From Candidatus Pacearchaeota archaeon (lineage in GTDB: Archaea > Nanobdellota > Nanobdellia > Pacearchaeales > GW2011-AR1), in the NCBI GenBank assembly GCA_017609915.1, contig JAFCDA010000001.1, positions 5,033 through 69,032 on the forward strand: a stretch of DNA of 64,000 nt, in the 5' to 3' direction. Under the pieces are notes generated by a model. The model was given only the letters and a program-made list of their open reading frames with translations. It was not told the origin of the DNA and did not search any database. Both the position numbers and the translations under genes were made by a program. How positions within the stretch are numbered: the stretch's first letter is position 1; each line of letters begins with the position of its first letter. This document shows positions 21,052-52,599 of this stretch, piece by piece.

Positions 21052-22473
21052 ATGAAAAAAGTGATATTAATGTATCCTAATTGTAGGTGGAAAAAAGGGT
21101 TTGAAAATAAAACCATATGGAACCTTCATCCTTATAATCTTTGTTTACTTTCTGCAATGATAGAACAAGATTATGAAACTAAAATAGTAGATACTAATAT
21201 TGATGATATATCTAAAGAAGATTTTGTAAAGATTATAGAAGAATATAAACCAGATATAGTTGGAATTTCAGTTCTTACAAATGAATATTTAGATTCTGGT
21301 TTAATTGCTGCAGAAATAGTTAAATCAATAAATTCTGAAATAAAAACAGTTATAGGAGGGGTTGCAACTTTTGATCCTGAATCTATAATTAAAAATGAAA
21401 ACATTGATTATGTTGTAGTGGGTGAAGGAGAATTTACTTTTAAAAAATTATGTAATCATATTTTTAGTGATGGAGATTTGCCATCTAAAGGCCTTGTTTT
21501 TAAAAAAGATGGAGAAATAATAAATCTTGGTCGTTCAGATTTTATAGAAGATTTAGATAGTCTTCCTTTTCCATCATATGATAAAGTTGATTATTTAAAA
21601 TATGCTAATTCAATTCAAAGAGAAAGTGTAGATAGCCCAAGAGAAATGCCTTATGCAAACATAATAACATCAAGAGGCTGTCCTTATAATTGTTGTTTTT
21701 GCCAGGCTGGAAAAATTTCTGGTAAAAAACCAAGGTTTCGTAGTGTAGAAAATATTCTTAAGGAAATTAGTTGGTTAAAAGAAAAATATGGAATAAAAGC
21801 TCTTATTTTTGATGATGATAATCTTCTTGTTGATAAAGAAAGAGCTAAAAATTTATTTAGGGGAATGATTGATAGAGGATTTAATCTAAAATGGAATGCT
21901 ATTGCTATGGCTGCATTTAAATTAGACGAAGAAATGATAGATTTAATGAAAAAAAGTGGATGTCAATATGTAGATATTGCTATTGAATCAGGTGTTGAAA
22001 GAGTACTTCATGATATTATTCATAAACCTTTAAATTTAGAACATGCAAGAGAAGTTCGAGATTTATTAAAAAAATATGAGATTGATTTTGCTGCAAATTT
22101 TATTATGGGATTTCCAGGAGAAACCTGGGATGAAATTAGAAAAACAATTAAATTTGCAGAAGAATTTGATGCAGATTATACTAAAATATTTATTGCAACA
22201 CCTTTACCAAACACAGAATTATATGAAGTTGCCAGAGAAAAAGGTTATTTAAAAGAAAATTTTAGTTTTGATAAACACTTATGGACTGATGGATGGATAG
22301 AAACTGAAGAATTTCGTCCAGAAGATCTAAAAATCTTAAGGGCATATGAATGGGATAGGATAAATTTCTCAAGCCCAGAAAAAATAAAAAAAATTATCTC
22401 TATGATGGACATTAGTGTAGAAAGACTTAATGAGATAAGAAAAAATACACGCAAGAGGGCAAACCCTCAATAA
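21052..22473 (+). CDS. B12-binding-domain radical SAM protein (3 of 3)
   Basis: N-terminal B12-like domain (VVGEGE) and CPYNCCFC cluster motif. 473 aa. Confidence 0.8.
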   Translation: MKKVILMYPNCRWKKGFENKTIWNLHPYNLCLLSAMIEQDYETKIVDTNIDDISKEDFVKIIEEYKPDIVGISVLTNEYLDSGLIAAEIVKSINSEIKTVIGGVATFDPESIIKNENIDYVVVGEGEFTFKKLCNHIFSDGDLPSKGLVFKKDGEIINLGRSDFIEDLDSLPFPSYDKVDYLKYANSIQRESVDSPREMPYANIITSRGCPYNCCFCQAGKISGKKPRFRSVENILKEISWLKEKYGIKALIFDDDNLLVDKERAKNLFRGMIDRGFNLKWNAIAMAAFKLDEEMIDLMKKSGCQYVDIAIESGVERVLHDIIHKPLNLEHAREVRDLLKKYEIDFAANFIMGFPGETWDEIRKTIKFAEEFDADYTKIFIATPLPNTELYEVAREKGYLKENFSFDKHLWTDGWIETEEFRPEDLKILRAYEWDRINFSSPEKIKKIISMMDISVERLNEIRKNTRKRANPQ

Positions 22474-22483: not shown

Positions 22484-23134
22484 ATGAGTCCAAATTTAAA
22501 AAATCTTTCAGATGAAGAAAAAGAAATTAAGATGATTGAGTTTGTAAAAGAGATTGTTGAATTATGGGAAGCTGCAAAAATACCTTATCCTATTCATTTT
22601 AGTGGGGGAAATGAAAAAGAATTAATTAAAATCTTTTCTGAAATTAAAGAAGGAGATTATGTTTTTTCTACGCATAGGGGGCATTATCATTATTTATTAA
22701 AAGGTGGAGATTTTGAAAAGTTAAAAGAATTTATTTTAAGAGGAGATAGTATGCATATTTTTGATAAAGATTTAAAATTTCTTACATCTGCTATTGTTGC
22801 TGGAACTCCCTCTATTGCTGCAGGAGTTGCTTATGCTTTAAAAAAGAAAAATAGTGAAAATAAAGTATGGTGTTTTATTGGAGATGGGGCAGAAGATGAA
22901 GGGCATTTTTATGAAGCAGTTAGGTATGTTGATGGATGGGATTTGCCATGCACATTTATTATAGAAGATAATGATCGGTCTGTTGAAACTCCAAAAAGTG
23001 AAAGATATGGAAAATCTCAAATTCAGTGGCCATCATGTGTTAGAAGATATATGTACAAGCCAAAATATCCTCATGTAGCAACTGAAAATTGGGTTGATTT
23101 TTCAGGAATGAAAGCTGGAGGTCCTTCTTTTTAA
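22484..23134 (+). CDS. TPP-dependent dehydrogenase E1 alpha-like protein (short form)
   Basis: TPP motif IGDGAEDEGHFYEAVRYVDGWDLPCTFIIEDND (GDG...N). 216 aa versus ~320 aa for typical E1 alpha. Confidence 0.6.
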   Translation: MSPNLKNLSDEEKEIKMIEFVKEIVELWEAAKIPYPIHFSGGNEKELIKIFSEIKEGDYVFSTHRGHYHYLLKGGDFEKLKEFILRGDSMHIFDKDLKFLTSAIVAGTPSIAAGVAYALKKKNSENKVWCFIGDGAEDEGHFYEAVRYVDGWDLPCTFIIEDNDRSVETPKSERYGKSQIQWPSCVRRYMYKPKYPHVATENWVDFSGMKAGGPSF

Positions 23135-24774
23135 TGAAATATAAAGAATTAATTAGTGAAGAAATGAAAAAATTAGCAAAAAATGATAAAACTGTCTTTA
23201 TAGGATATAATATTAAAAGAGGTTCAAAAGCTTATGGGACCTTAACAGATGTTCAAGATAAATGTATTGAAATGCCCCTTGCAGAAAATTTAATGACAAG
23301 TTTTGCTATTGGCATGTCTTTAGAAGGCTATAAACCAGTAGTTTTCTTTGAGAGACAAGATTTTATTTTAAATGCCTTAGACTCTATTGTTAATCATTTA
23401 GATAAAATTAAAGAAATGTCTAAAGGAGAATTTGAAACTCCTATAATAATCAGAGCCCCTGTAGGCGGCAAAAAACCTTTAGATCCTGGGATGCAGCATA
23501 CTCAAGATTTTAGTGAGGTATTGAAAAAAATTATTAAATTTCCAGTTTATGAATTAAAAACTGAAGAAGATTTTGCTAATTATTCTAAAATTATTCAAAA
23601 TATAAAAGAACCAACCCTTTTTATAGAGTATAAGGACCTTTATGGAAAAGAAATTGAGCAAAAAGAAAAAATAATTCTTGATAGTCATAAATTAATCTGG
23701 CATACAGAAAGAGTTAATGCATGGTTAAGAGGAGAAAGAATTGCTCCTATAACAATAGATTGCGCATTAACCAGGAGATGTAATTATAGATGTACTTATT
23801 GTTATGGACAATTACAAGCAAATGATGAAAAAAAGATGACTTTAGAGGTAATTCAAAGATTTTTAAAAGATGCTTCTGAAATAGGGGTAAAAGCTGTAAG
23901 TTTTGTAAGTGATGGAGAAAGTTCATGCTCTCCTCATCTTTATGATTCAATAATTTATGGGAAAAAACAAGGACTAGATATGGCTCTTGGAACAAATGGG
24001 TCTTTGCTTAAAAAAGAAGGGCTTAAAGAAGCAATAGAGTGCTTAACCTATCTTAGATTTAATATTTCTGCTGGAGAAAAAGAACGATATAAAGAAATAC
24101 ATGGATGTTCTGATTTAGATTATGATAAAACAATTGAAAATATTAAAGAATGTGTAAAAATAAAAAAAGAAAATAATTTAGATGTTACAATTGGTTTACA
24201 AATGGTTCTCATGTCTGAATTTAAAGACCAAATAATTCCTTTAACAAAATTAGGAAAAGAACTAGGAGTTGATTATTTAGTTATTAAACATTGTAGTGAT
24301 GATGAAGAAGGTAGTTTAGGAATAGATTATGATAAATATTTTGATAAAGATTTAATTGAAAAAATAAAAGAAGCTGAATCTTATTCAGATGAAAATTACT
24401 TAGTTAAAGCAAAATGGTCAAAAATCTTAAGTGGGGGAAAAAGAAATTATTCACGATGTTTTGGACCTCCTTTTATCTTACAGATGTCTGGTTCTGGATT
24501 AGTTGCTCCTTGCGGAATGTTTTTTAATGATAAATATGAAAAATATCATATTGGAAATATAGCTGAAAAATCTTTTAAAGAGATTTGGGAAAGCGATAGA
24601 TATTGGGAAGTTATGGATTTAATTGCTTCTGAAGATTTTGATGCAAAAACAATGTGTGGAACTTTATGCTTGCAGCATAAAGTAAATGAATATCTCTGGG
24701 ATTTAAAAGATAAAGGGGTAACTAATATAGATGTACCAGAAGGAGAAGCTCCAATGCATCTTAATTTTATTTGA
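23134..24774 (+). CDS. fusion protein: E1 beta-like (transketolase pyrimidine-binding) N-domain + radical SAM domain
   Basis: aa 1-~175 carry MPLAENLMTSFAIGMSLEGYKPVVFFERQDFILNALDSIVNH (E1-beta/Transket_pyr-like). aa ~185-546 are radical SAM with C216NYRC220TYC223. Confidence 0.65.
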   Translation: MKYKELISEEMKKLAKNDKTVFIGYNIKRGSKAYGTLTDVQDKCIEMPLAENLMTSFAIGMSLEGYKPVVFFERQDFILNALDSIVNHLDKIKEMSKGEFETPIIIRAPVGGKKPLDPGMQHTQDFSEVLKKIIKFPVYELKTEEDFANYSKIIQNIKEPTLFIEYKDLYGKEIEQKEKIILDSHKLIWHTERVNAWLRGERIAPITIDCALTRRCNYRCTYCYGQLQANDEKKMTLEVIQRFLKDASEIGVKAVSFVSDGESSCSPHLYDSIIYGKKQGLDMALGTNGSLLKKEGLKEAIECLTYLRFNISAGEKERYKEIHGCSDLDYDKTIENIKECVKIKKENNLDVTIGLQMVLMSEFKDQIIPLTKLGKELGVDYLVIKHCSDDEEGSLGIDYDKYFDKDLIEKIKEAESYSDENYLVKAKWSKILSGGKRNYSRCFGPPFILQMSGSGLVAPCGMFFNDKYEKYHIGNIAEKSFKEIWESDRYWEVMDLIASEDFDAKTMCGTLCLQHKVNEYLWDLKDKGVTNIDVPEGEAPMHLNFI

Positions 24775-24938: not shown

Positions 24939-25997
24939 ATGGCAGTAGATAGTAAAATTGACGGGCATAAATTAATCCTGCATCCAAAAAGGGTGGCTGA
25001 ATGGAAAGAAAAAGGAGATTGTTATCCAATATATATTGAGATAGGTCCTACAAATATATGTAATCATAGATGTATTTTTTGTGCTTTAGATTATCTTGGA
25101 CATGAAGGATTTAATATAGACACAGAACTTATGATTAATACCTTAAAAGAAATCGGGGAAAAGGGTGTTAAATCTATAATGTTTGCCGGAGAAGGAGAAC
25201 CTCTTGCGCATAAAGATATTGGATTATTTGTTCAAACAGCAAAACAATCTGGAATAGATGTTTCTATTACAACAAATGGGGTATTATTTAATAAAGAAAA
25301 AGCAGAACAATTTCTTCATCATTTATCTTGGATAAGGTTTAGTATTGATGCTGGAACTTCTGAAACTTATAATAAAGTTCATAGAGGGGGAGAAAATGAT
25401 TTTAACAAAGTTATAGAAAACATAAAAAATGCTGTTGAAATTAAAAAAGCAAAAAATCTAAACACTGTGATTGGAATTCAGTTTTTAATGATTCCTGATA
25501 ATCTAAATGATGTTCTTAAACTTGCTCAAATAGCAAAAGATATTGGGGCAGATAATTTGCAAATAAAACCTTATTCTCAGCATCCAAAAAGTGAAAATAG
25601 TTTAGTACTATATTATGAAGATTATGCGCATTTAGAAAAAGAACTTGAAAAGTTTAATTCACCTGATTTTAAAATCTTCTTTAGAAAACAGACAATGCAA
25701 AGAGTTGAACAAGGAATCAATTATTCTGGATGTCATGGGCTTCCATTTTTTGCTCTAATAGATGCAAAAGGAAACATAATTCCATGCAATCTTTTTTATG
25801 ATATTCCAGAATTTACATATGGAAATTTACATGAAAACAGTTTTTCAGAAATTTGGAAAAGTGAAAAAAGACAACAAGTTTTACAAAGAATAAGAGAAAA
25901 AGGAATTGAAGATTGCAGACATGCATGTAGATTAGATGTTATTAACAGATATTTACAAAGATTAAAAAATCCTCAATCACATGATAATTTTGTGTGA
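24939..25997 (+). CDS. radical SAM protein, paralog of the C-terminal domain of 23134..24774
   Basis: HKLILHPKRVAEWKEK...CNHRCIFC parallels HKLIWHTERVNAWLRG...CNYRCTYC. Collinear similarity runs to the C-terminus (HDNFV vs HLNFI). Confidence 0.75.
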   Translation: MAVDSKIDGHKLILHPKRVAEWKEKGDCYPIYIEIGPTNICNHRCIFCALDYLGHEGFNIDTELMINTLKEIGEKGVKSIMFAGEGEPLAHKDIGLFVQTAKQSGIDVSITTNGVLFNKEKAEQFLHHLSWIRFSIDAGTSETYNKVHRGGENDFNKVIENIKNAVEIKKAKNLNTVIGIQFLMIPDNLNDVLKLAQIAKDIGADNLQIKPYSQHPKSENSLVLYYEDYAHLEKELEKFNSPDFKIFFRKQTMQRVEQGINYSGCHGLPFFALIDAKGNIIPCNLFYDIPEFTYGNLHENSFSEIWKSEKRQQVLQRIREKGIEDCRHACRLDVINRYLQRLKNPQSHDNFV

Positions 25998-27066: not shown

Positions 27067-28032
27067 ATGAATAAAAAAGATTTAGAAACATATGGTTCTG
27101 GTTTATTAGATTTTCATACTCATTCAACTTTCTCTGATGGGGGAGATACCCCAACACAACTTGTAGAAAGAGCTAAAAAACAGGGGGTTACTGCAATGGC
27201 TTTAACAGACCATCATGGTCATAAAGGATTACCTGAATTTATAGCTGCATGTAAGCAATATGATATATTTCCAATACCTTTTGGAGTTGAAATTGCTGCA
27301 GAACTTCCTGAAAAAGTTTTAACACCACAAGATATGTCTTCTCCTGATTTAATTATTCTTGGAAAAAATCCAAATGTAAAACCTATGAAAGGATATCAAG
27401 AAATATATTTTAATGATTTGGAAAAAAGGCATTTACCTGAAATATTAGCTGGATTAAGAAAGGTTGGTTTTGAATTACCTGTTGTAAATCTAAAAGAACA
27501 ATGTGCTTCTTTTCATGCTCCTCCAGATATACTTCATGATTTTGTTCATTATAAAAAAAATATGCAAGTTTTAAAAAATTATGTTAAAACAAAGGATTCA
27601 AATGTTAGTGATGCAGACATTGAAAAAAAACCAATAGCATTTGCTAATAGATGGTTATATGCTGTAGGTATGCCTGCTTATACAGCAAGATTTAAAGGTT
27701 TTAGCCTTGATAGTGCACTTCAATTAGTTGAAGAGATGAACTGTAAACTATTTATTGCACACCCTGGAGGAGATTATGGGTTTTTAACAGATGCTATGTT
27801 AAATTATTTTACTGAGAAGAAAATCCATGGAATTGAGATAAGAAGTTATCTTAACAGCCCTGAACAAAATGCTAAATTTGATAAATTAGCTAAAGAACAC
27901 AATCTAATAAGATCTGGAGGTTCTGATTGTCATGGTGCCAAGGGGCCTTTTAGAATGGGAATATATGATCGTCCACAAAATCAACTTCCTAAAGATGTTT
28001 TAGAAGAGCTTATGGACTGGTTGCCTTCTTAA
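27067..28032 (+). CDS. PHP-domain metal-dependent phosphoesterase
   Basis: DFHTHSTFSDGGDTP, ALTDHH, GGSDCHG. Confidence 0.75.
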   Translation: MNKKDLETYGSGLLDFHTHSTFSDGGDTPTQLVERAKKQGVTAMALTDHHGHKGLPEFIAACKQYDIFPIPFGVEIAAELPEKVLTPQDMSSPDLIILGKNPNVKPMKGYQEIYFNDLEKRHLPEILAGLRKVGFELPVVNLKEQCASFHAPPDILHDFVHYKKNMQVLKNYVKTKDSNVSDADIEKKPIAFANRWLYAVGMPAYTARFKGFSLDSALQLVEEMNCKLFIAHPGGDYGFLTDAMLNYFTEKKIHGIEIRSYLNSPEQNAKFDKLAKEHNLIRSGGSDCHGAKGPFRMGIYDRPQNQLPKDVLEELMDWLPS

Positions 28033-28224: not shown

Positions 28225-29136
28225 ATGGACCCAATACAAATCCCTCAAGGTTACAATTATATATCTGCATTTTTAACAATGAGATGCAATCTTAATTGTA
28301 GTTTTTGCTTAAATTCAATTGACAAAAGCAGAGAATTTAATAGGACAAAATTTAAAGAGCTTTCTGGAGAGCAATGGGTTAAAGCATTAAATAGGATTGA
28401 ATCACGTCCAGAAGTTCCAGTAACCTTTTCAGGAGGAGAGCCTTTTTTACATCCAGATTTTCTTTATATCCTTAAGAATCTTAAAAAAGATTTAAACATA
28501 GATATTTTAACTAATTTATCTTTTGAAGTAGCTGTTGAAAAATTTTTAAAAGAAATAGACCCAGAAAGAATAAAGAGAAATGTTCCTTATGCTTGTATTC
28601 GTGTTTCTTATCATCCAGAACAAATGGGAAATGGTGCAGAACTTATTGAAACAGTTAAAAAACTAAAAGATGCTGGATTTAGTATTGGTGTATGGAGTGT
28701 TTTATATCCTTCTTTTGAAAATCTCTCTGCAATAAATCAAATGCAATTTAGATGTATAGATGCAGGAATTGATTTTAGATTAAAAGAATATACTGGAACC
28801 TATAAGGGAGACTTATATGGAGATTATTCTAAATATTCTAACTCAGTTTTATCAAATAAATTAAAAAAATGCTTATGTAAGGGCTCTGAATTATTAATAG
28901 CTCCAAATGGAAATATTTACAAATGTCACAGTGATTTATTTAGTGAAGAATTTCCTATAGGAAATATTCTTGACCCTAATTTCCAAATTAAAAACGAATT
29001 TAGAAAATGTGAGAAATATGGTCAGTGCCATCCATGTGATGTAAAACTTAAGACAAATTATAAACAAGAATTAGGGAATACCTCTGTTGAAATAAAAGAA
29101 ATAGAAGATAATTCTCAACCGAAAGTTATAGTTTAA
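28225..29136 (+). CDS. radical SAM protein (small, C-terminal Cys-rich)
   Basis: CNLNCSFC cluster motif, FSGGEPFLHPDF, C-terminal CEKYGQCHPCD. Confidence 0.75.
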   Translation: MDPIQIPQGYNYISAFLTMRCNLNCSFCLNSIDKSREFNRTKFKELSGEQWVKALNRIESRPEVPVTFSGGEPFLHPDFLYILKNLKKDLNIDILTNLSFEVAVEKFLKEIDPERIKRNVPYACIRVSYHPEQMGNGAELIETVKKLKDAGFSIGVWSVLYPSFENLSAINQMQFRCIDAGIDFRLKEYTGTYKGDLYGDYSKYSNSVLSNKLKKCLCKGSELLIAPNGNIYKCHSDLFSEEFPIGNILDPNFQIKNEFRKCEKYGQCHPCDVKLKTNYKQELGNTSVEIKEIEDNSQPKVIV

Positions 29137-34466: not shown

Positions 34467-34539
34467 TTACTTGAGTAATACATTACATTATACCAATTAT
34501 CTTTATAAACTTTAAATATTCGGATAATATATTACAAAA

Positions 34540-35223
34540 ATGGCGGCACAAACAAAATGGCAAAGTTTTGAGGAATTTTTAGTTAATCAACCAATCCAAG
34601 TAGATTATTTTTATTTGATAATTGCTTTACTAATAGCTGCATTACTTTCATTTATATTAGGTAAACTTTATGTGAAATATGGGACTTCTATTTCAAATAG
34701 GAGAAAATTTTCATCTAATTTTGTCTTGGTTACAACTACTACTACTTTAATTATAATGATTGTTAAATCATCTCTTGCACTTTCATTAGGGCTTGTTGGA
34801 GCATTATCAATTGTAAGATTTAGGGCAGCAATAAAAGAACCTGAAGAACTAGCTTTCTTGTTTCTCACAATTTCAATTGGATTAGGATTAGGTGCAGGAC
34901 AATTATTAACAACAATTATAGCTTTTTTTATAATTTCTTTATTAATTTGTGGGCGTCATTTTTATTATAAAAAAGAAGAAAATCAAAATCTATATTTAAC
35001 TGTTTCTGGAAAAAATATTAAACTAAAAGATATAGTTGATGCATTAAACAAACATTGCTCATCTGTTCATTTAAAACGTTTTGACCAATTAGAAGAAGGA
35101 TTAGAAGCCTCTTTTTTAGTTGATTTTGATTCTTTCCAAAAATTAGAAAAAACAAAAAGAGAGTTAAATTCTCTTTCAAAAGAAGTTAATATAACATACC
35201 TTGATAAATCGGGCTTAGATTAA
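34540..35223 (+). CDS. DUF4956-like membrane protein
   Basis: LVGALSIVRFRAAIKEPEELAFLFLTISIGLGLGAG resembles the DUF4956 core. 4 TM helices plus a soluble C-terminal domain. Confidence 0.6.
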   Translation: MAAQTKWQSFEEFLVNQPIQVDYFYLIIALLIAALLSFILGKLYVKYGTSISNRRKFSSNFVLVTTTTTLIIMIVKSSLALSLGLVGALSIVRFRAAIKEPEELAFLFLTISIGLGLGAGQLLTTIIAFFIISLLICGRHFYYKKEENQNLYLTVSGKNIKLKDIVDALNKHCSSVHLKRFDQLEEGLEASFLVDFDSFQKLEKTKRELNSLSKEVNITYLDKSGLD

Positions 35224-35225
35224 AA

Positions 35226-37982
35226 ATGAAATTAAAAGAAAGGAAAGAAGGTAATTTTTTTTATTATTTAAAGAAAAGTTTAAAATTTATTTCTAGAGGT
35301 ATATTTAATAAAAAAACAAAAATCATTTTCTGGATTTTAATTCTGATTGTTCTTTTTTCAATGGGAACGCTTTTTGGATTATTAATTTCTGGTTTTTTTG
35401 GGACATTTGATGAGCCCTCACAAAGAGTTATAGATTTATTGCATTCTAAAGGCATAATAGGGCTTAAAAATATTAAACGCCAAATGGAAGGGGTTATTAG
35501 TGAAAATTTCAAGATTCCAATTAATTACATAGCAGGCCAATTTTCAAAACCTAAGAAAATCTTTATTGATATTGGTCTTGATAATTATAAAAGAATAGAG
35601 TATAAACGTGAACAAGCATTAGATATTGGGGTGCTTGTTACTTCTGGAGAAGATTATGTTCCTGCAGAGATTAGATATAAAGACCAGGTAGTTAATGTAA
35701 ACTTAAGATTAAAAGGAGATTGGGTGGATCATCTTGAAGGAGATAAATGGTCTTTTAGAATTAAAACAAAAGGAGATACGCTTTTTGGAATGAAAACTTT
35801 TTCAATACAAGACCCAAAAACTAGAAATTATTTAAATGAATGGTTGTATCATCAGGCTCTTGAAAGAGAAGATGTCTTATCTCTTAAGTATGATTTTGTA
35901 GAGGTTGTTATAAATGGAGAAAATAAAGGCATATATGCTTTAGAAGAACATTTTGAAAAACAATTAATTGAACGAAATAATAGGAGAGAAGGATTGATTA
36001 TTAAATTTAATGAAGATCCTATGTGGGATGAAATTGTAAAAATAAATAATTATTATACTCATCCTCTTGAATTAATTAGTGCTTTAGATAATAAATCTTT
36101 AGATTGGTTTTATAGTAGCAGTATAGAAACTTTTACTAATGAAAAATCTTTAAAAGATCCTTATTTAGCTAAACAATTTGAAGAAGCTAGTAGTTTATTA
36201 GAATCTTTTAGAAGAGGTTCATTAGGAGTTTCAGAAGTTTTTGATACAGATAAACTTGCAAAATATTTTGCTATTAATACATTAATGGGAACTGGACATG
36301 CTTCTACATGGAATAATATTAGATTTTATTATAATCCTATAACTTCCCGTTTAGAACCAATTGGTTTTGATGCAAATTGTGATGTTGAGGCCCCATATAA
36401 TGTTATCGGAGATTATATTCCTCCTTGTTTATCTAATGAAAACAATTGTTCTCAAAAAATAGAATCTTTTTCTGATTTATTTCTCAGGGATAAAGAATTT
36501 TTTGAAAAATATATGAAAGAATTAGATAAATTTTCTCAAAAATCTTATTTAGATAGCTTATTTTTAGATTTGGGTGATGACCTTGAAAAAAATTTAAACA
36601 TTATTCATAAGAATTATCCCTTTTATTGTTTTTCCATCCAATCTTTTTATGAAAGACAGAAACGAATAAGAGAAGGATTAACCCCTTTGAAAAGTATAAA
36701 TGCATATTTTCAGAAAAGTTTACCTTCTCAAAATGAACTTGTTTTATATATTGGAAATGTGAAGTTCATCCCTTTAGAAATTGAAAATTTAGTTTATAAT
36801 GATTCTGTTATCTTTCACTTAATTGAAGGTGATAAACTTCTTCAACCAAAAATAGCTTCTGAGCCTGTAGATTATCAAAAGTTTAATTTTAAAATTCCTG
36901 CTGGTTTTTCATGGAATGACAGCTTTGCTTCAGATTTAAAGATTAATTATAAAATCTTGGGAATTGAGGGGATAAAAGAAGAGATTGTTTCTCCCTGGTC
37001 TTATGTTGAAGAAAACTTCTTAGAAGAAGATTTTATAAGGCAAGAAACAAATATTAGTTCTTTTGAATTATTAATAATAGAAGAAGATACTAAATCAATA
37101 TTTATTCAAAAAGGGTCGTGGATTTTAAATCAAAGTATGACTATTCCTCCAGGATTTAGTGTGTATTGTAATGAAGGAACAAGTATTAATCTTATGAATG
37201 GTGCAACAATACTTTCTTATTCAGACTTACAATTTTCTGGATCAGACGAAAATCCAATTAAAATCTTTTCATCTGATAGAACTGGGCAAGGCCTTACATT
37301 ATTAAATGTCGAACGTGTTTCTAATCTTAAACATGTTATTTTTAATGATTTGACAAGTCCAATTAAAAAAGGCTGGGAACTTTCTGGAGCAATCAACTTT
37401 TATAAATCTCCTGTTAAATTAGAGAATATTATTATCAAAGATATTAATTCAGAAGATGGTTTAAATATAATTGACTCTGAATTTGAAATTAGAGATTCTC
37501 ATTTTGAAAATTGTATTTCAGATTGTTTTGATGGTGATTTTGTAGAAGGTCCTATAAAATCTTCTTCATTTATTGGTTGTGGAAATGATGGTTTAGATTT
37601 TTCAGGAAGTTTTGTTGATATAGAAAATATTGATATTTTAAATGTAGGAGACAAAGGGATAAGTGTTGGAGAAGATAGTAATGTAACAATAGAGAATGCA
37701 AAGATAAATGGAGATAAGTTAAATAAAGGTTATATTGGAATTGCAAGTAAGGATAAATCACAAGTTTTTATTAAAAATAGTGAAATTTCAAATGTTGAGT
37801 ATGGTCTTGCAGTTTATGAAAAAAAATCTGAATTTGGAGCTGCTTCAATAAATGCTATCAATATTAATTTTTCTAATATAAATAATAGTTATATTATTGA
37901 AAAAGAATCATCTCTTTTAATTGATGATGTTATGATGCTTAATAAAGAAGAAGAAGTTTATAAAAAATTATATGAATTATGA
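35226..37982 (+). CDS. CotH kinase-like protein with C-terminal beta-helix repeats, N-terminal TM anchor
   Basis: GDWVDHLEGDKWSFRIKTKGD...FSIQDPKTRNYLNEWLYHQALERE...VVINGENKGIYALEEHFEKQLIE matches the CotH family pattern. The C-terminal ~300 aa look like a right-handed beta-helix. Confidence 0.65.
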   Translation: MKLKERKEGNFFYYLKKSLKFISRGIFNKKTKIIFWILILIVLFSMGTLFGLLISGFFGTFDEPSQRVIDLLHSKGIIGLKNIKRQMEGVISENFKIPINYIAGQFSKPKKIFIDIGLDNYKRIEYKREQALDIGVLVTSGEDYVPAEIRYKDQVVNVNLRLKGDWVDHLEGDKWSFRIKTKGDTLFGMKTFSIQDPKTRNYLNEWLYHQALEREDVLSLKYDFVEVVINGENKGIYALEEHFEKQLIERNNRREGLIIKFNEDPMWDEIVKINNYYTHPLELISALDNKSLDWFYSSSIETFTNEKSLKDPYLAKQFEEASSLLESFRRGSLGVSEVFDTDKLAKYFAINTLMGTGHASTWNNIRFYYNPITSRLEPIGFDANCDVEAPYNVIGDYIPPCLSNENNCSQKIESFSDLFLRDKEFFEKYMKELDKFSQKSYLDSLFLDLGDDLEKNLNIIHKNYPFYCFSIQSFYERQKRIREGLTPLKSINAYFQKSLPSQNELVLYIGNVKFIPLEIENLVYNDSVIFHLIEGDKLLQPKIASEPVDYQKFNFKIPAGFSWNDSFASDLKINYKILGIEGIKEEIVSPWSYVEENFLEEDFIRQETNISSFELLIIEEDTKSIFIQKGSWILNQSMTIPPGFSVYCNEGTSINLMNGATILSYSDLQFSGSDENPIKIFSSDRTGQGLTLLNVERVSNLKHVIFNDLTSPIKKGWELSGAINFYKSPVKLENIIIKDINSEDGLNIIDSEFEIRDSHFENCISDCFDGDFVEGPIKSSSFIGCGNDGLDFSGSFVDIENIDILNVGDKGISVGEDSNVTIENAKINGDKLNKGYIGIASKDKSQVFIKNSEISNVEYGLAVYEKKSEFGAASINAININFSNINNSYIIEKESSLLIDDVMMLNKEEEVYKKLYEL

Positions 37983-38015
37983 AATATCAGATTAAAAACT
38001 AATATCTTGATTGAG

Positions 38016-38027
38016 CTTATAAAATAT
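38016..38027 (+). promoter_or_regulatory. putative TATA-like box (CTTATAAAATAT)
   Basis: Lies 23-34 nt upstream of the ATG at 38050. Same box recurs upstream of 45200 and 46416. Confidence 0.4.
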
Positions 38028-38049
38028 AGGTTAATAGAATAACACAAAA

Positions 38050-38736
38050 ATGAAAAATAATGATTTAAAGAGATTTAGATATGAAAGAAAATTTGTTATA
38101 TCTGAATTAAATTCTTATGAAATAGAACATTTAATCAGACATAATCCTGCAATTTTTTCTGAAATATTTTATGAAAGAATGGTTAATAATATTTATTTAG
38201 ATTCTATAGATTTGAAAAATTATAATGAAAATTTAATTGGAATTTCTAATAGAATAAAAATTAGAATTAGATGGTATGGGGGTGTTTTTGGAATTATTAA
38301 AAAGCCTGTATTAGAATTAAAAGTAAAAAATAATGAATTAGGGAGAAAACTATCTTTTCCATTAAAGGGATTTATTTTAGATAAAAAATTTTCCTTAAAT
38401 TTATTACAAAAAGTTTTCTCAAAATCAAATCTTCCAAAGTGGTTAGTTGAAAGATTAAAATTATATTCTCCAAGTCTTCTTAATTCTTATAAGAGAAAAT
38501 ATTTTATTTCTGCTAATAAAAAATATAGGATTACTTTAGATAAAGATCAAATTTTTTATAAAATAAAAAATAGAAATAATTTCTTTAAGGAAAAAATTAC
38601 AAATAAAAAAATCTGTATTTTAGAAATAAAATATGCTTTAGAAGATTATAAAAGAGCAGCCAATATAACTAGATATTTTCCATTTAGATTAATAGCAAAC
38701 TCCAAATATGTTAATGGAATGGATTTGTTTGGTTAG
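38050..38736 (+). CDS. VTC-domain (polyphosphate polymerase / triphosphate-tunnel-like) protein
   Basis: RFRYERKFVI, NNIYLDS, RIKIRIRWYG, VLELKVKNN. Alternating basic beta-strand pattern of VTC/CYTH-like tunnel proteins. Confidence 0.6.
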   Translation: MKNNDLKRFRYERKFVISELNSYEIEHLIRHNPAIFSEIFYERMVNNIYLDSIDLKNYNENLIGISNRIKIRIRWYGGVFGIIKKPVLELKVKNNELGRKLSFPLKGFILDKKFSLNLLQKVFSKSNLPKWLVERLKLYSPSLLNSYKRKYFISANKKYRITLDKDQIFYKIKNRNNFFKEKITNKKICILEIKYALEDYKRAANITRYFPFRLIANSKYVNGMDLFG

Positions 38737-38764: not shown

Positions 38765-39592
38765 TTAACTTAAATTTATTCTCATTTTAGAGAGGCCTAA
38801 TCTTAAAGCAAAATAAAATGCGTGTTTTGTAAAACCACTATAAGAAATTTCTTGTTTATCATTTAACCAATCGTTGTGTTCTCTAATTTTTTCATCAAGA
38901 GATTTATTTAGTTTTTCAGGATTTTGATTACAATCAATTTCAGATAAAACAGAATAAGAACGTCCAATTTCAAAAGGAGAATGAGCATCAGAAGATGAAA
39001 GGGCCCCAATATTTTTATTTTCACAGAATTTTTTATAAAATTTCTGGGCTTTTTTATTTCCTACAATAGCTTCTCCATCATGAACCATTATTGCAGAAAA
39101 AAAATCTAATATTTCTGGATTTTTTAATAAATAATCTCCAAGTTTTGACATAAAAAAGATGTGACTTGCTTCAGCAGGGCACCCTTTAGCTTTTGTTTCT
39201 CTAAGAGACTCTGTTATTTTTCTTTGTTTAAGATTTGTTCCATAAGGAAGTCCTAAAACTAAAATATGTCCTTCAGGAAATTCCATTTCCTGGGTTTTTA
39301 ATATATGAACTCCATAGGGATTAACATGAAACATATTGCTTTTATCAATAGAAGGTCCATTAACTTCAATTTTTCTATATCCAAATTCTTTTAAGCAAGT
39401 TTTAAAAAATAATTCATATCTATAATCATAATCTGGTTTTCTATCAAAAGTTTTTCCCCATTGACTATTTGCAATTCCAAAAACCCCATTAGGCCCTAAC
39501 CTTTGTTCAGCAATTTCTAAAATATGCTTGGCACTAGTTGGGCAATGTTGTCTTTCATATGCATGATTATGTAAATCTGCTCTTATTTCCAT
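38765..39592 (-). CDS. PHP-like metal-dependent phosphoesterase
   Basis: MEIRADLHNHAY at the N-terminus, SSSDAHSPFEIG near the C-terminus. Confidence 0.5.
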   Translation of the reverse strand: MEIRADLHNHAYERQHCPTSAKHILEIAEQRLGPNGVFGIANSQWGKTFDRKPDYDYRYELFFKTCLKEFGYRKIEVNGPSIDKSNMFHVNPYGVHILKTQEMEFPEGHILVLGLPYGTNLKQRKITESLRETKAKGCPAEASHIFFMSKLGDYLLKNPEILDFFSAIMVHDGEAIVGNKKAQKFYKKFCENKNIGALSSSDAHSPFEIGRSYSVLSEIDCNQNPEKLNKSLDEKIREHNDWLNDKQEISYSGFTKHAFYFALRLGLSKMRINLS

Positions 39593-39625
39593 TTTAATTT
39601 ATTATCAGAACTCTTTTTAAATTTA

Positions 39626-39709
39626 TGCAGAGGATAGGATTCGAACCTATGAAGGCACTAAGCCACAAGATCTTGAGTCTTGCCCGTTTGACCACTCCGG
39701 AACCTCTGC
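39626..39709 (-). tRNA. tRNA-Leu (anticodon CAA), long variable arm
   Basis: Minus strand GCAGAGG TT CCGG AGTGGTCAAA CGGG CAAGA CTCAAGA TCTTG TGGCTTAGTGCCTTC ATAGG TTCGAAT CCTAT CCTCTGC A. Confidence 0.9.
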
Positions 39710-39751
39710 TTAAATATTATGAAAAAGCCAATAATTGTTTATATAAAAACC

Positions 39752-39761
39752 TTTATAAAGA
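39752..39761 (+). promoter_or_regulatory. putative TATA box for 5S rRNA
   Basis: ctttataaag is centred ~25 nt upstream of the inferred 5S 5' end (39781). Confidence 0.5.
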
Positions 39762-39780
39762 GTTATTTTTAAGTTATATT

Positions 39781-39894
39781 GGAGACGACCATAATAATCT
39801 GGTCACACCTGATCCGATTTCCAACTCAGAAGTTAAGCAGATTATGTTTAAGGTATTAGTTTCAGAGATGAAGTGAAGCCATAAAGTTGTCTTC
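39781..39894 (+). rRNA. 5S ribosomal RNA (stand-alone)
   Basis: GGAGACGACCATA...CACACCTGATCCGATTTCCAACTCAGAAGTTAAGC... matches conserved 5S loop/helix signatures. The 5' GGAGACGAC pairs with the 3' GTTGTCTTC. Confidence 0.8.
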
Positions 39895-39964
39895 TTTATA
39901 TTCCAAACAACTTTATATAAAAAGCCAGTATCTTATAAAATATAAATAAACATAAAAATAAAAA

Positions 39965-50774: not shown

Positions 50775-51431
50775 ATGCTATTTGAATCAGTTGTAAGTTT
50801 TTTTGAAGGATTAATAAATTCAGTTCCTACAGAATATCGAATATTAGTGAGTCTTTTTATTTACACCTTTTTTATTGCAATATATGCTATCTTTATTTGG
50901 AAATTTTATAAATTTCTTGCAAGTAGAGATATTATTGAACTAAATCTAAAACAATATAATCATTCAAAATATCCTGGATTAGAGAAATTTTTTGCAGTTC
51001 TTCTTTATACTGTTGAATATATGATTATTTTGCCTTTTTTAGTATTATTTTGGTTTGCAATCTTTTCTATGTTTTTATTAATCTTATCTGAATCACAAAG
51101 TGCTCAACAAATACTTTTAATTTCTGCAGCAATTATTGCCTCAACAAGAATAAGTGCTTATATTAGTGAAGATTTATCAAAAGATATTGCAAAAATTCTT
51201 CCATTTACTGTTTTAGCAATGTTTATTTTAGGTAATCAATTTTTTAATTTAGAAACTATCTTCTTAAAAATCTATCAAATTCCTTCATTGTTTAATAATG
51301 TTGTAATGTTTATTATATTTATTTTTATAACAGAGTTTGTTCTTAGAGGAATTCATTCTATTATTCAATTAATTTATTCTTCTTCAGGAAGCTCTGGAAC
51401 TGGTGGAGGAACTTCAGTTAAGGAAGGTTGA
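50775..51431 (+). CDS. polytopic membrane protein, function unknown
   Basis: 218 aa, ~6 TM helices, Gly/Ser-rich tail SSSGSSGTGGGTS. Confidence 0.45.
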   Translation: MLFESVVSFFEGLINSVPTEYRILVSLFIYTFFIAIYAIFIWKFYKFLASRDIIELNLKQYNHSKYPGLEKFFAVLLYTVEYMIILPFLVLFWFAIFSMFLLILSESQSAQQILLISAAIIASTRISAYISEDLSKDIAKILPFTVLAMFILGNQFFNLETIFLKIYQIPSLFNNVVMFIIFIFITEFVLRGIHSIIQLIYSSSGSSGTGGGTSVKEG

Positions 51432-52210
51432 GAATTAAATAAATCACAATTACTTCTAAATTCACACCATTTACATAATTTACTTGGTGTTGGAGGAAAC
51501 TCTGTTGTAGATTCAATTTTATCAATTAACCTTATGATTTCTTGTTTTAAGTTTTCAAGCTCTTGCTCTGTTCTTTTTGAGACTATTTTCTTATTAAAAG
51601 CAAGAAAATGCCAAACCAGATGCACATCATTAACATTATCAAAACTGTTTTTTATACCAATTGCATATAATGCTAATTGCCTATCTTTATCTAATTCTTC
51701 TTGAGATTTTAGAAATCCTCCTGTCTTATAGTCATGAATCTCATAAATGTTGTTATCTTTATTGTGAACTAATCTATCAATATATCCTTGAAGTTTATAT
51801 TTTCCTTCAGAATCTAAATTAATAATTATTCTTTTTTCTGTTGCAATAGTATTATCTTTGAATGGGGAATGTTTTAAAAAATAATCTATTAAAAACTTGA
51901 TTCCTTGATTAAAATAATGTTCTGCATTATATTCTTTTTTTGTTATTTGGATTTTATTATTAAAATCTTTATTCCAAAGATCAATAAAATATCTAAGAAC
52001 ATCATCTAACTGGAAGATTCTTCCTATAATAACTTGGTCATAAATAAATCTTAGAGTTTCATGGACTTTGTGCCCAAGAAAAGCTTCTATTGTCTCTTCT
52101 ATATCTGGTCTAATTCTATCAATATATCTAAATTTAAATTTAAGAGCACATTGTTCAAATGAAGCTAATCTTGAATGAGAGTAAATCACCATTTTTAAGT
52201 ATAAACTCAA
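51374..52210 (-). CDS. PD-(D/E)XK nuclease (Cas4/RecB-like) with Fe-S cysteines
   Basis: YSHSRLASFEQCALKFKFRYI (N-terminal Cys), GYIDRL...IHDYKTG (D..D/E-x-K core), C-terminal CKWCEFRSNC. Confidence 0.7.
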   Translation of the reverse strand: MSLYLKMVIYSHSRLASFEQCALKFKFRYIDRIRPDIEETIEAFLGHKVHETLRFIYDQVIIGRIFQLDDVLRYFIDLWNKDFNNKIQITKKEYNAEHYFNQGIKFLIDYFLKHSPFKDNTIATEKRIIINLDSEGKYKLQGYIDRLVHNKDNNIYEIHDYKTGGFLKSQEELDKDRQLALYAIGIKNSFDNVNDVHLVWHFLAFNKKIVSKRTEQELENLKQEIIRLIDKIESTTEFPPTPSKLCKWCEFRSNCDLFNSQPSLTEVPPPVPELPEEE

Positions 52211-52323
52211 ATAAATAGTCTATTAAAAAGATTTCTGTGGTGGAAATCGAGAAATCTTTTTTGTTTTTTTAGTATCTAAAAATTTTCAGTTAAGTTTTTA
52301 AAAATCATTTTCCTAATCCTTGT

Positions 52324-52590: not shown

Positions 52591-52599
52591 ACATAATCT

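What the first reader, a model, noticed from the sequence alone, without database searches (positions are those of the whole stretch)
34540..38736. DUF4956 / CotH-kinase-like / VTC-domain trio: a bacterial-type putative polyphosphate module in an archaeon
Seen: three consecutive same-strand genes, with the first two 2 nt apart.
- A DUF4956-like membrane protein (SIVRFRAAIKEPEELAFLF).
- A 918-aa membrane-anchored CotH-like protein with a C-terminal beta-helix.
- A VTC/CYTH-tunnel-like protein (RYERKF, RIKIRIRWYG, LELKVK).
Established: the VTC catalytic domain is the eukaryotic vacuolar polyphosphate polymerase fold, and CotH is an atypical protein kinase of Bacillus spore coats. From memory, VTC-domain, DUF4956 and CotH genes co-occur in bacteria, and I am not aware of that module having been characterised.
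Inference: this may be a membrane-associated polyP-synthesising or polyP-dependent phosphorylation system acting at the cell surface. It is unusual for a reduced archaeon and is a candidate horizontal acquisition.
Basis: partly seen in the sequence, partly recalled or inferred. Interest (0 to 1): 0.6.

Follow-up and report, generated by a model that had tools for sequence, protein, structure and literature searches.

The report
Prokaryotic VTC-type polyphosphate module
Three adjacent genes in this DPANN-type archaeon encode a yeast-Vtc4-like polyphosphate polymerase, a very conserved membrane protein and a surface-exposed kinase-fold/beta-helix enzyme; this uncharacterised module is common across archaea and bacteria and probably makes polyphosphate and passes it to the cell surface.

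Summary
Three same-strand genes encode DUF4956 (34540-35223), a 918-aa CotH-fold plus beta-helix protein (35226-37982) and a stand-alone VTC tunnel domain (38050-38736). All three pass Pfam's cut-offs.

The VTC protein keeps all nine Vtc4 triphosphate-binding and catalytic residues, including K458, which separates active Vtc4 from inactive Vtc2/3. These residues are invariant in 150 diverse relatives.

DUF4956 and VTC are adjacent in 82 of 86 related loci. The CotH-like gene is present in 63. A secreted metallophosphoesterase joins them in 14.

The CotH/beta-helix protein and the metallophosphoesterase are extracytoplasmic, whereas VTC is cytoplasmic. I therefore infer polyphosphate synthesis coupled to export through DUF4956, as in the yeast VTC complex.

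Two points in the finding do not hold:
- The module is not unusual in reduced archaea. It is common in Pace-, Woese- and Nanoarchaeota. The window's copy sits in a DPANN clade and has native base composition.
- The "CotH kinase" lacks CotH's catalytic Asp. An invariant His precedes that position in every module copy.

The gene association was already noted beside Gram-positive pel operons. No function has been tested.

The parts
34540..35223 (+). DUF4956 membrane protein gene (227 aa): predicted 5 TM helices, N-terminus out and C-terminus in, with a cytoplasmic C-terminal domain
   Evidence: ORF. Pfam PF16316 E=2e-16. AF2 model pLDDT 79. Homologs 63-82% identical. Adjacent to VTC in 82/86 loci. 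Topology is my reading by the positive-inside rule.
34762..34902 (+). Near-invariant core of DUF4956 (residues 75-121): small-residue-rich helices flanking the charged loop R93-F-R95-x-x-I-K99-E-P-E-E
   Evidence: R93, R95, K99, E100 and E103 are present in 81/82 archaeal and bacterial sequences; E102 in 80/82. I infer that the loop faces the cytoplasm.
34984..35202 (+). C-terminal beta-alpha-beta-beta-alpha-beta domain of DUF4956 (ACT/PII-like ferredoxin fold), predicted cytoplasmic
35226..37982 (+). Gene for the 918-aa membrane-anchored, extracytoplasmic CotH-fold / beta-sandwich / beta-helix protein
   Evidence: Full-length homologs are 40-59% identical in DPANN archaea, Methanosarcina and several bacterial phyla.
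35310..35399 (+). N-terminal signal-anchor helix (about residues 29-58) after a K/R-rich cytoplasmic tail
   Evidence: Sequence; helix 29-54. Bacterial homologs have lipoprotein, signal or TM N-termini instead.
35643..36680 (+). CotH-fold (atypical kinase-like) domain, about residues 140-485
   Evidence: Pfam PF08757. Profile hit to B. cereus CotH 5jd9 at E=3e-4. Foldseek to 5jda/5jd9 at E=4e-11, TM 0.65 normalised to the target.
36297..36371 (+). Variant catalytic loop H358-A359...N364...D382. CotH's catalytic Asp position holds A/G/S in nearly all copies and follows an invariant His; the metal-binding Asn and Asp are kept.
   Evidence: Alignment to 5jd9. Column counts. 66 module copies tabulated. 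D228Q and D251A are reported as inactive in B. subtilis CotH (PMC7821199).
36693..37025 (+). Beta-sandwich linker domain (about residues 490-600)
   Evidence: AF2 secondary structure. No family assigned.
37068..37940 (+). Right-handed parallel beta-helix (about residues 615-905) with invariant D744, D766, D769, D771, D788, D791, D809, K810, E816, K842, D843, K866, K867 and E869
   Evidence: Pfam Beta_helix. Weak GH28-like match to 1k5c covering the N-x-D-G-x-D motif. Foldseek hits to GH87, AlgE4 epimerase, PL6 lyases and tailspikes. Invariant columns.
38050..38736 (+). Gene for a stand-alone VTC tunnel domain (228 aa): predicted cytoplasmic polyphosphate polymerase
   Evidence: Pfam PF09359, 86 bits. 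Profile hits to yeast Vtc2/Vtc4. K14, R72, R74, K91, Y147, R149, E192, S218 and K219 correspond to Vtc4 K200, R264, R266, K281, Y359, R361, E426, S457 and K458. They are invariant in 150 representatives apart from Y to F in two and four truncated N-termini.
34502..34509 (+). TTTATAAA, a TATA-like box about 31-38 nt upstream of the DUF4956 start codon (possible archaeal promoter; weak evidence in 27% GC DNA)
   Evidence: Sequence read. No statistical test was done.

Best explanation
The trio is a prokaryotic counterpart of the eukaryotic VTC polyphosphate synthase/translocase, with a surface enzyme attached.

Step 1 (sequence shown, activity inferred). The soluble 228-aa VTC tunnel protein polymerises polyphosphate from ATP at the cytoplasmic face of the membrane. 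It would use the same Lys/Arg/Tyr/Ser/Glu-Mn2+ site as yeast Vtc4.

Step 2 (inferred). It works on the polytopic DUF4956 protein, its obligate genomic partner. DUF4956's invariant R-F-R-x-x-I-K loop is predicted to face the cytoplasm. Together with the small-residue-rich helices, it would receive the nascent chain and pass it across the membrane. The C-terminal ACT/PII-like domain would act as a cytoplasmic regulatory sensor.

Step 3 (location shown, chemistry inferred). Outside the cell, the anchored CotH-fold/beta-helix protein handles the emerging polymer. It either uses it as the phosphoryl donor to modify surface glycans or proteins, since no ATP is available outside, or it trims or attaches it. 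The active site is a His variant of the CotH site. Some relatives add a secreted metallophosphoesterase, as yeast vacuoles have luminal Ppn2.

The window's copy is a resident DPANN gene set next to a large surface-glycan island, not a recent import.
For: VTC enzyme:
- VTC Pfam match at 86 bits over the whole profile, and profile hits to the yeast Vtc2/Vtc4 tunnel domains.
- All nine residues that bind triphosphate/Mn2+ and are required for polyP synthesis in Vtc4 (listed in bioRxiv 10.1101/2023.01.27.525886) align to identical residues. This includes K458, the only one lost in inactive Vtc2/3. They are invariant in 150 representatives of 50%-identity clusters.
- The family has 7341 such clusters, and the best 150 are all stand-alone proteins of 181-277 aa.

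Pairing:
- DUF4956 and VTC are adjacent in 82/86 loci. The other four are cut at a contig end or hold a fragmentary DUF4956 match. Open reading frames often overlap.
- DUF4956 residues 75-121, including R93, R95 and K99, are near-invariant across archaea and bacteria.

Inside/outside split:
- VTC has no hydrophobic segment.
- The CotH/beta-helix protein has a signal anchor here and lipoprotein, signal or TM N-termini in bacteria.
- The recurrent metallophosphoesterase occurs in 14 loci, is on the same strand in 14/14, and lies a median 34 nt from a trio gene. It carries signal or lipoprotein N-termini, and some copies end in a hydrophobic anchor or a T9SS-like tail.

Yeast precedent: VTC couples synthesis to translocation through a channel with rings of basic residues. 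Ppn2 is a luminal metallophosphatase endopolyphosphatase.

Residency in DPANN.
Against: - No enzymatic or localisation data exist for any prokaryotic member.
- DUF4956 shows no detectable sequence or fold similarity to the VTC transmembrane domain or to any solved channel, so the conduit role rests on context only.
- The S. intermedius study suggested the polyP may stay in the cytoplasm.
- The beta-helix resembles polysaccharide-active enzymes, and the neighbours are often glycan genes. The ectoenzyme's substrate may therefore be a glycan with no involvement of polyP.
- The CotH-like gene is absent within about 7 kb in several full-length loci, for example L037, L068, L082 and L086.
- No fusion of VTC to DUF4956 was seen among the best 150 representatives.
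Confidence: 0.4

Rival explanations
1. Cytoplasmic polyP store. The VTC protein makes polyP that stays inside the cell. DUF4956 only anchors or regulates it at the membrane, with the ACT/PII-like domain sensing a metabolite. The CotH/beta-helix protein is a functionally separate surface enzyme that is merely co-regulated.
For: The catalytic residues are intact. DUF4956 has an ACT/PII-like cytoplasmic domain typical of small-molecule sensors. The DUF4956 membrane part shows no similarity to the VTC channel. The S. intermedius authors proposed cytoplasmic retention. No PPK1, PPK2 or PPX was found among the ORFs scanned in this window, so VTC could be the cell's polyP source.
Against: It does not explain why the most frequent partners are extracytoplasmic phospho-enzyme folds, on the same strand and often overlapping. 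It also does not explain why a mere anchor would have a near-invariant 47-residue membrane core across two domains of life. In yeast, VTC-type synthesis is mechanistically coupled to translocation, and a review notes that cytosolic polyP is toxic there (PMC7381174).
Confidence: 0.25
2. Exopolysaccharide or surface-glycan modification module. The main job is to modify a surface glycan: the beta-helix binds, cuts or epimerises it and the CotH fold acts as a glycan kinase or transferase. VTC/DUF4956 only supplies or regulates the phosphoryl donor, and no free surface polyP is the end product.
For: The trio sits 3.7 kb from a roughly 30-kb glycan island in the window. In relatives it lies beside STT3, GT2, GT4, GT9, GtrA, Polysacc_synt, deacetylase and AlgX/MBOAT genes. 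In Firmicutes it is contiguous with pel operons, and in C. perfringens it lies near a GT2 'chitin synthase'. The beta-helix matches AlgE4, PL6, GH28 and GH87 enzymes.
Against: The neighbouring glycan genes differ from locus to locus, whereas the trio is constant. This reading overlaps with step 3 of the best explanation rather than excluding it. No glycan-specific catalytic motif is fully conserved: the GH28-like 'DD' is D809-K810 here.
Confidence: 0.2
3. Not a polymerase. The VTC-like protein is a triphosphate-tunnel hydrolase or cyclase, as many CYTH/TTM enzymes are, and the module signals or transports something other than polyP.
For: The TTM superfamily includes tripolyphosphatases, thiamine triphosphatases, RNA triphosphatases and adenylyl cyclases (my own knowledge, not tested here). 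No prokaryotic VTC-family member has been assayed.
Against: The match is to Pfam VTC, with no CYTH family listed at E<=0.01. Every Vtc4 residue needed for polymerisation is invariant, including K458, which inactive Vtc2/3 lack.
Confidence: 0.08
4. One reading: a bacterial module recently acquired by a reduced archaeon.
For: The family is shared between archaea and many bacterial phyla at 40-55% identity. Methanosarcina and Methanogenium copies group apart from the DPANN copies, so inter-domain transfer happened at some point.
Against: The nearest relatives of all three proteins are DPANN archaea with identical gene order. The window copy nests in a DPANN clade in a rough NJ tree. GC is native. 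No integrase or repeat flanks the trio; the neighbours are tRNAs, SecDF and 5S rRNA.
Confidence: 0.05

Closest known systems
Eukaryotic VTC complex (yeast Vtc4/Vtc3/Vtc1), a polyphosphate polymerase coupled to a membrane channel
   Same: Same Pfam VTC tunnel domain, with all nine triphosphate/Mn2+-binding residues identical. The catalytic domain is obligatorily associated with a small polytopic membrane protein. A metallophosphoesterase on the trans side occurs in some loci, like luminal Ppn2.
   Different: There is no SPX domain, and the tunnel domain is not fused to a membrane domain. The membrane partner is DUF4956, with 5 predicted TM helices plus an ACT-like domain. It is not the 3-TM Vtc1-type domain, and no similarity to it was detected. 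The target compartment would be the cell exterior rather than a vacuole. The module adds a CotH-fold/beta-helix ectoenzyme.
Bacillus CotH spore-coat protein kinase (PDB 5JD9/5JDA)
   Same: Pfam CotH passes its cut-off. The fold matches at Foldseek E=4e-11. The Asn and Asp equivalent to the metal-binding residues are kept: N364, and D382, which corresponds to B. subtilis D251.
   Different: The catalytic Asp (B. subtilis D228) position holds A/G/S in nearly all copies, preceded by an invariant His. The protein is membrane-anchored and extracytoplasmic rather than made in the mother-cell cytoplasm. It is fused to a beta-sandwich and a beta-helix. It is 918 aa, against about 360.
cotH / 'polyphosphate polymerase' / DUF4956 / DUF4832 accessory genes next to Gram-positive pel operons, and C. 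perfringens NELoc-2
   Same: The same three families sit side by side, have been noted in print, and remain functionally untested (bioRxiv 10.1101/768473; PMC2879425; bioRxiv 10.1101/2024.04.20.589940).
   Different: Those CotH proteins are shorter. One has an FN3 domain instead of a beta-helix and was reported to keep the catalytic residues; I did not check this. They are embedded in a defined pel operon. Here the host is archaeal, the gene order is DUF4956-CotH-VTC, and there are no pel genes.
Synthase-dependent exopolysaccharide systems (alginate, Pel, cellulose): a working analogy only
   Same: A cytoplasmic-face polymerase is coupled to a membrane conduit, with an extracytoplasmic beta-helix enzyme acting on the emerging polyanion. 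Structural neighbours of the beta-helix include the AlgE4/AlgE6 mannuronan epimerases.
   Different: The polymer would be inorganic. No glycosyltransferase is part of the conserved core.
PPK1/PPK2 polyphosphate kinases
   Same: The predicted end product is polyP made from a nucleotide.
   Different: The folds are unrelated. PPKs are not coupled to membrane transit. None was found among the window ORFs scanned, and the rest of the genome was not available.

Membership tests
VTC polyphosphate polymerase domain (Pfam PF09359; yeast Vtc4 central domain) | Profile match above the curated threshold over the whole domain | tested here: met
   86 bits against a cut-off of 23, covering profile positions 1-233 of 235. 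The A1 profile hits Vtc2 at E=3e-6 and Vtc4 at E=1e-4.
VTC polyphosphate polymerase domain (Pfam PF09359; yeast Vtc4 central domain) | Triphosphate/Mn2+ site: K200, R264, R266, K281, Y359, R361, E426, S457 and K458. K458 distinguishes active Vtc4 from inactive Vtc2/3. | tested here: met
   These align to K14, R72, R74, K91, Y147, R149, E192, S218 and K219 (residue list). They are invariant in 150 representatives, apart from Y to F in two and four truncated N-termini.
VTC polyphosphate polymerase domain (Pfam PF09359; yeast Vtc4 central domain) | Synthesises polyP from ATP | not testable with these tools
   Needs a recombinant enzyme assay.
Eukaryote-type VTC complex subunit | N-terminal SPX domain and C-terminal 3-TM (Vtc1-like) domain on the same chain or on partner chains | tested here: not met
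   The protein is 228 aa with the VTC domain only. The best 150 relatives are 181-277 aa. The partner is DUF4956, with no match to VTC chains.
CotH kinase family (Pfam PF08757; B. cereus/B. subtilis CotH) | Profile match above threshold and the CotH fold | tested here: met
   45.1 bits against 23.8. 5jd9 at E=3e-4 by profile. Foldseek E=4e-11 with target-normalised TM 0.65.
CotH kinase family (Pfam PF08757; B. cereus/B. subtilis CotH) | Catalytic Asp (B. subtilis D228, B. cereus D224) | tested here: not met
   The aligned position is A359. It holds A/G/S in nearly all 66 module copies (a few carry P, N, T, F, M or V, and one paralog has Asp), and His358 precedes it in all but one. A one-residue alignment shift cannot be excluded, but no Asp is present in this loop.
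CotH kinase family (Pfam PF08757; B. cereus/B. subtilis CotH) | Metal-binding Asn and Asp (the latter is B. subtilis D251) | tested here: met
   N364 is present in 33/36 sequences and D382 in 31/36. The N-to-D spacing of 18 residues is the same as in CotH.
CotH kinase family (Pfam PF08757; B. cereus/B. subtilis CotH) | ATP-dependent Ser/Thr phosphorylation of protein substrates | not testable with these tools
   Biochemistry is needed. The extracytoplasmic location makes ATP an unlikely donor (my inference).
DUF4956 (Pfam PF16316) | Profile match above threshold | tested here: met
   60.5 bits against 30.6.
MgtC/SapB/YhiD family (considered for DUF4956) | Sequence similarity of the membrane domain to MgtC/YhiD | tested here: not met
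Conserved prokaryotic DUF4956-VTC(-CotH) gene module | DUF4956 and VTC genes adjacent, with a CotH-like gene next to them | tested here: met
   The window has the gene order DUF4956-CotH-VTC seen in 34 of 86 related loci. The pair is present in 82/86 and the trio in 62/86.
Known anti-phage defence systems | Match to any PADLOC model | tested here: not met
   No hits for the three proteins or the downstream PHP-like protein.

The most novel reading that the evidence does not exclude
Prokaryotes have a VTC-type machine (VTC tunnel enzyme plus a DUF4956 pore) that extrudes polyphosphate to the cell surface. There a His-variant CotH-fold ectoenzyme uses the polymer instead of ATP as phosphoryl donor, possibly through a phospho-His358 intermediate. 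It would phosphorylate or polyphosphorylate surface glycans or S-layer proteins. This would be an ATP-independent extracellular phosphorylation system and the likely prokaryotic ancestor of the eukaryotic VTC complex.
Probability: 0.15. Interest if true: 0.85.

Novelty: new variant of a known kind. Interest (0 to 1): 0.58.

Why it matters
The polyphosphate papers I read present VTC as a eukaryotic enzyme. They leave open how archaea without PPK1 or PPK2 make polyP.

Stand-alone VTC proteins with a fully intact Vtc4 active site form a large prokaryotic family: 7341 clusters at 50% identity. They are almost always paired with one highly conserved membrane protein.

If the pair proves to be a synthase/translocase, three things follow:
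- It would give a third prokaryotic route to polyP.
- It would provide a prokaryotic model, and a possible ancestor, for the eukaryotic VTC complex.
- It would offer an answer to how secreted CotH-fold 'kinases' work where there is no ATP.

For DPANN archaea, which depend on cell-surface contact with hosts, it points to a conserved surface-chemistry module. Cultivable carriers for genetics exist: Methanosarcina sp. Mfa9, Methanogenium marinum DSM 15558, Winogradskyella, Agaribacillus, Bacteroides and Streptococcus intermedius.

Tried and rejected
1. Exact-sequence look-up of the window's VTC protein and of its identical hit P0001 found no contig on record. I could not reach the rest of the genome to look for ppk1, ppk2 or ppx.
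2. Single-sequence PDB searches were uninformative. Profiles were needed.
3. DUF4956 as an MgtC/YhiD relative, suggested by JGI names on some homologs: rejected at sequence level.
5. VTC-DUF4956 fusion proteins as evidence of physical association: none among the best 150 representatives.
6. The downstream PHP-like phosphoesterase (38765-39592) as a fourth module member: no homolog in any of the 86 related loci. Rejected.
7. A module-type metallophosphoesterase, or second copies of the trio, elsewhere in the window: none.
8. Defence-system membership: none. NCBIfam gave no hit for any of the three proteins.
9. The original CotH structure paper (PMC4922149) is not held. The D228 and D251 roles come from PMC7821199. 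The mapping to B. cereus numbering rests on the constant offset of 4 in the alignment.
10. Several recurrent 'neighbour' ORF clusters were antisense artefacts lying inside the trio genes.

Full report
**1. Observation**

- 34540-35223 (+, 227 aa)
- 35226-37982 (+, 918 aa)
- 38050-38736 (+, 228 aa)

The first two are 2 nt apart, and the second and third are 67 nt apart. The quoted peptides are present.

Pfam confirms all three assignments above the curated cut-offs:
- DUF4956 at 60.5 bits
- CotH at 45.1 bits, residues 160-433
- VTC at 86 bits, across the whole profile

The beta-helix is borderline on the whole protein. It passes on the C-terminal half alone and is clear in the AlphaFold2 model (pLDDT 87). 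NCBIfam and PADLOC give no hit for any of the three proteins.

**2. Host and setting**

The window has 24-31% GC, and the trio is not compositionally distinct. Archaeal markers are present: DUF655, an Rpb3-like RNA polymerase subunit and a stand-alone 5S rRNA.

The nearest relative of the trio is a Candidatus Pacearchaeota genome, with 70% VTC identity. I therefore take the host to be a DPANN-type archaeon.

The region from 0.5 to 31 kb is a large surface-glycan island. It holds PMT_2, GT2, GT4, GT6 and GT9 genes. It also holds several B12-radical-SAM and radical-SAM/SPASM genes, an epimerase, DegT, FkbM, a sulfatase, a PAPS reductase, a type I phosphodiesterase and a Polysacc_synt flippase.

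SecD/SecF and two tRNAs lie between that island and the trio. Downstream is a convergent PHP-like gene. It has no counterpart next to the trio anywhere else, so it is not part of the module.

No PPK1, PPK2 or PPX was seen among the ORFs scanned. The rest of the genome could not be reached.

**3. The VTC protein**

A profile built from 37 homologs hits the yeast Vtc2 and Vtc4 tunnel domains (E=3e-6 to 2e-3).

The cryo-EM study of yeast VTC lists K200, R264, R266, K281, Y359, R361, S457, K458 and E426 (Mn2+) as the residues holding the triphosphate. All are needed for polyP synthesis. K458 is the one residue that inactive Vtc2/3 lack.

In the alignment these correspond to K14, R72, R74, K91, Y147, R149, S218, K219 and E192 of the window protein.

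A search of 1.84 billion cluster representatives found 7341 relatives at E<=1e-3. The best 150 are all stand-alone proteins of 181-277 aa. All nine residues are invariant in them, apart from Y to F in two and four truncated N-termini.

The protein has no SPX domain and no membrane segment. The family is clearly under selection for the Vtc4 active site. Polymerase activity itself remains an inference.

**4. DUF4956**

This is the most conserved of the three proteins. The top 120 hits are 63-82% identical.

The membrane part has no solved relative. A link to MgtC/YhiD fails at sequence level.

By the positive-inside rule (my reading) the topology is N-terminus out, C-terminus in. That places the loop R93-F-R95-A-A-I-K99-E-P-E-E and the ACT-like domain in the cytoplasm.

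Residues 75-121 are near-invariant in 82 archaeal and bacterial sequences.

**5. The 918-aa protein**

A K/R-rich tail and one helix (29-54) anchor it with the bulk outside the cell.

Bacterial homologs replace the anchor with lipoprotein signal peptides (Bacteroidales) or other signal/TM segments. The extracytoplasmic location is therefore a conserved feature.

Residues 140-485 have the CotH fold (Foldseek E=4e-11 to 5jda; profile E=3e-4).

In B. subtilis CotH, D228Q and D251A are inactive. In the alignment, B. cereus D224, N229 and D247 correspond to those residues with a constant offset of 4.
- The window protein keeps N364 and D382.
- The catalytic Asp position is A359. It holds A, G or S in nearly all of the 66 module copies examined, from archaea and bacteria.
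- It is preceded by His358, which is present in all but one of those copies.

This is therefore a distinct His-variant branch of the CotH fold. Calling it a protein kinase is not justified.

Residues 615-905 form a right-handed beta-helix with a column of invariant Asp and Lys residues. Its structural neighbours act on polysaccharides, several of them acidic: AlgE4 epimerase, PL6 lyases, GH28, GH87 and phage tailspikes.

**6. Conservation of the module**

They include:
- Archaea: Pace-, Woese- and Nanoarchaeia, Methanosarcina, Methanogenium.
- Bacteria: Bacteroidota, Chlorobiota, Omnitrophota, Planctomycetota, Verrucomicrobiota, Patescibacteria, Gemmatimonadota and others.

I searched 86 fetched loci with HMMs built from my own alignments:

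| Content of locus | Loci |
|---|---|
| All three genes | 62 |
| DUF4956 + VTC only | 20 |
| VTC + CotH, no DUF4956 | 1 |
| VTC only | 3 |

Of the four loci without DUF4956, three are cut at a contig end on the relevant side. In the fourth, DUF4956 appears only as a fragmentary hit.

The gene orders were:

| Order | Loci | Where |
|---|---|---|
| DUF4956-CotH-VTC | 34 | All DPANN loci but one, Methanosarcina, several bacterial phyla |
| CotH-(x)-DUF4956-VTC | 18 | Bacteroidales, Chlorobiota |
| Split form: beta-helix half and CotH half as separate genes flanking VTC-DUF4956 | 6 | Flavobacteriaceae, Agaribacillus |
| DUF4956-VTC-CotH | 3 | Various |

Two loci fall outside these orders: L007, where VTC converges on CotH-DUF4956, and the truncated L018. 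The core is therefore the DUF4956-VTC pair, and the CotH/beta-helix enzyme is a frequent accessory.

A fourth recurrent gene is a calcineurin-like metallophosphoesterase:
- It occurs in 14 loci, including the archaeon Methanogenium.
- It is on the same strand in 14 of 14 and lies a median 34 nt from a trio gene.
- It carries signal or lipoprotein N-termini, and some copies end in a hydrophobic anchor or a T9SS-like tail.

Other neighbours vary but are mostly glycan genes.

**7. Mechanism**

Shown:
- A cytoplasmic enzyme with an intact Vtc4 active site.
- An obligate, extremely conserved polytopic partner.
- One or two extracytoplasmic phospho-enzyme folds encoded in the same transcription unit.

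Inferred: the product made inside the cell is used outside it, so DUF4956 is the conduit.

Yeast provides the precedent. There the Vtc4 tunnel sits on a channel with rings of basic residues, and synthesis is coupled to transit. A metallophosphatase, Ppn2, trims polyP on the trans side.

The role of the ectoenzyme is the weakest step. Because ATP is not available outside the cell, polyP is the obvious donor or substrate. The invariant His could serve as base or as phospho-acceptor. The beta-helix could hold polyP or an acidic glycan.

I put 0.4 on the whole chain. I put more, about 0.6-0.7, on step 1 alone.

The rival explanations are:
- a cytoplasmic polyP store with DUF4956 as anchor or sensor (0.25)
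- a glycan-modification module in which polyP is only an intermediate (0.2)
- a non-polymerase TTM enzyme (0.08)
- recent acquisition from bacteria (0.05)

**8. Horizontal transfer**

A rough NJ tree of concatenated VTC+DUF4956, without bootstrap support, places the window with Pacearchaeota. It sits inside a clade of Woese-, Pace- and Nanoarchaeia. Methanosarcina and Methanogenium fall elsewhere, among bacterial sequences.

Inter-domain transfer is thus part of the family's history. The window's copy is nonetheless a long-resident DPANN gene set and is not unusual for such genomes.

**9. What is known**

The side-by-side occurrence of cotH, a 'polyphosphate polymerase' and DUF4956 has been described in three places:
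- next to Gram-positive pel operons
- in S. intermedius
- in C. perfringens NELoc-2, where DUF4956 was mislabelled 'tubulin/FtsZ'

I found no functional study. The polyP papers I read present VTC as eukaryotic.

New here:
- the breadth of the module in archaea
- the invariance of the complete Vtc4 active site
- the His-for-Asp change across all module CotH copies
- the consistent inside/outside split
- the metallophosphoesterase partner

**10. Verdict**

This is a real, well-conserved and uncharacterised module.

| Aspect | Verdict |
|---|---|
| Functional idea | Plausible, and sharpened here |
| 'Unusual archaeal acquisition' | Wrong |
| Novelty | New variant of a known kind (VTC-type polyP synthesis) |
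| Interest | 0.58 |

Noticed in passing
window 22484-24774: A split thiamine-diphosphate enzyme inside the glycan island. A 216-aa E1_dh/DXP_synthase_N protein is followed directly by a 546-aa fusion of a transketolase pyrimidine-binding domain with a radical-SAM/SPASM domain. I do not recognise this fusion.
   Followed up: no
window 493-30840: A roughly 30-kb surface-glycan island, very large for a small DPANN genome. It has at least four B12-binding radical-SAM genes (6493-8037, 13443-15155, 21052-22473, plus SPASM types at 24939-25997 and 28225-29136) and a GT6-family glycosyltransferase at 15814-16686.
   Followed up: partly
window 9414-12874: A cluster of a type I phosphodiesterase/nucleotide pyrophosphatase, a PAPS-reductase-family protein and a sulfatase. 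It hints at sulfated or phosphorylated surface glycans.
   Followed up: no
window 39625-39895: A stand-alone 5S rRNA gene (39781-39895, +) lies beside tRNA-Leu (39626-39709, -). The 83-aa ORF at 39625-39876 overlaps both and is almost certainly spurious.
   Followed up: partly
window 51374-59216: A PD-(D/E)XK/Cas4-like nuclease (51374-52210), several ORFs without any Pfam match (53345-55707) and a tyrosine integrase (58332-59216). This may be an integrated mobile element.
   Followed up: no
L010 9469-13690 and L063 7667-12353: A second, much more divergent DUF4956/VTC/CotH set lies next to the first in a Nanoarchaeota SAG and a Cytophagia MAG. The L010 paralog has 'H-D' at the catalytic loop, that is both the His and the canonical Asp.
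   Followed up: partly
L019, L026, L050, L067, L076, L081: In Flavobacteriaceae and Agaribacillus the large ectoprotein is split into two genes flanking VTC-DUF4956: a beta-helix half and a CotH half. Each half has its own signal anchor.
   Followed up: partly
L003 (GCA_042576465.1, labelled candidate division KSB1): Its VTC+DUF4956 nests inside the DPANN clade next to Woese- and Nanoarchaeota sequences. This could be a mis-binned archaeal contig or a recent archaeon-to-bacterium transfer.
   Followed up: no
L033, L037, L044, L057, L060, L061, L069, L070, L086: An AlgX-like SGNH acetyltransferase, paired with an MBOAT (AlgI-like) gene in most of these loci, recurs next to the module in Bacteroidales and Chlorobiota, often on the same strand. 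This is the O-acetylation machinery of secreted polysaccharides.
   Followed up: partly
window 27067-28032 and 38765-39592: Two PHP-family phosphoesterase genes lie in the window: one in the glycan island and one convergent on the VTC gene. Neither has a homolog near the module in 86 related loci.
   Followed up: yes
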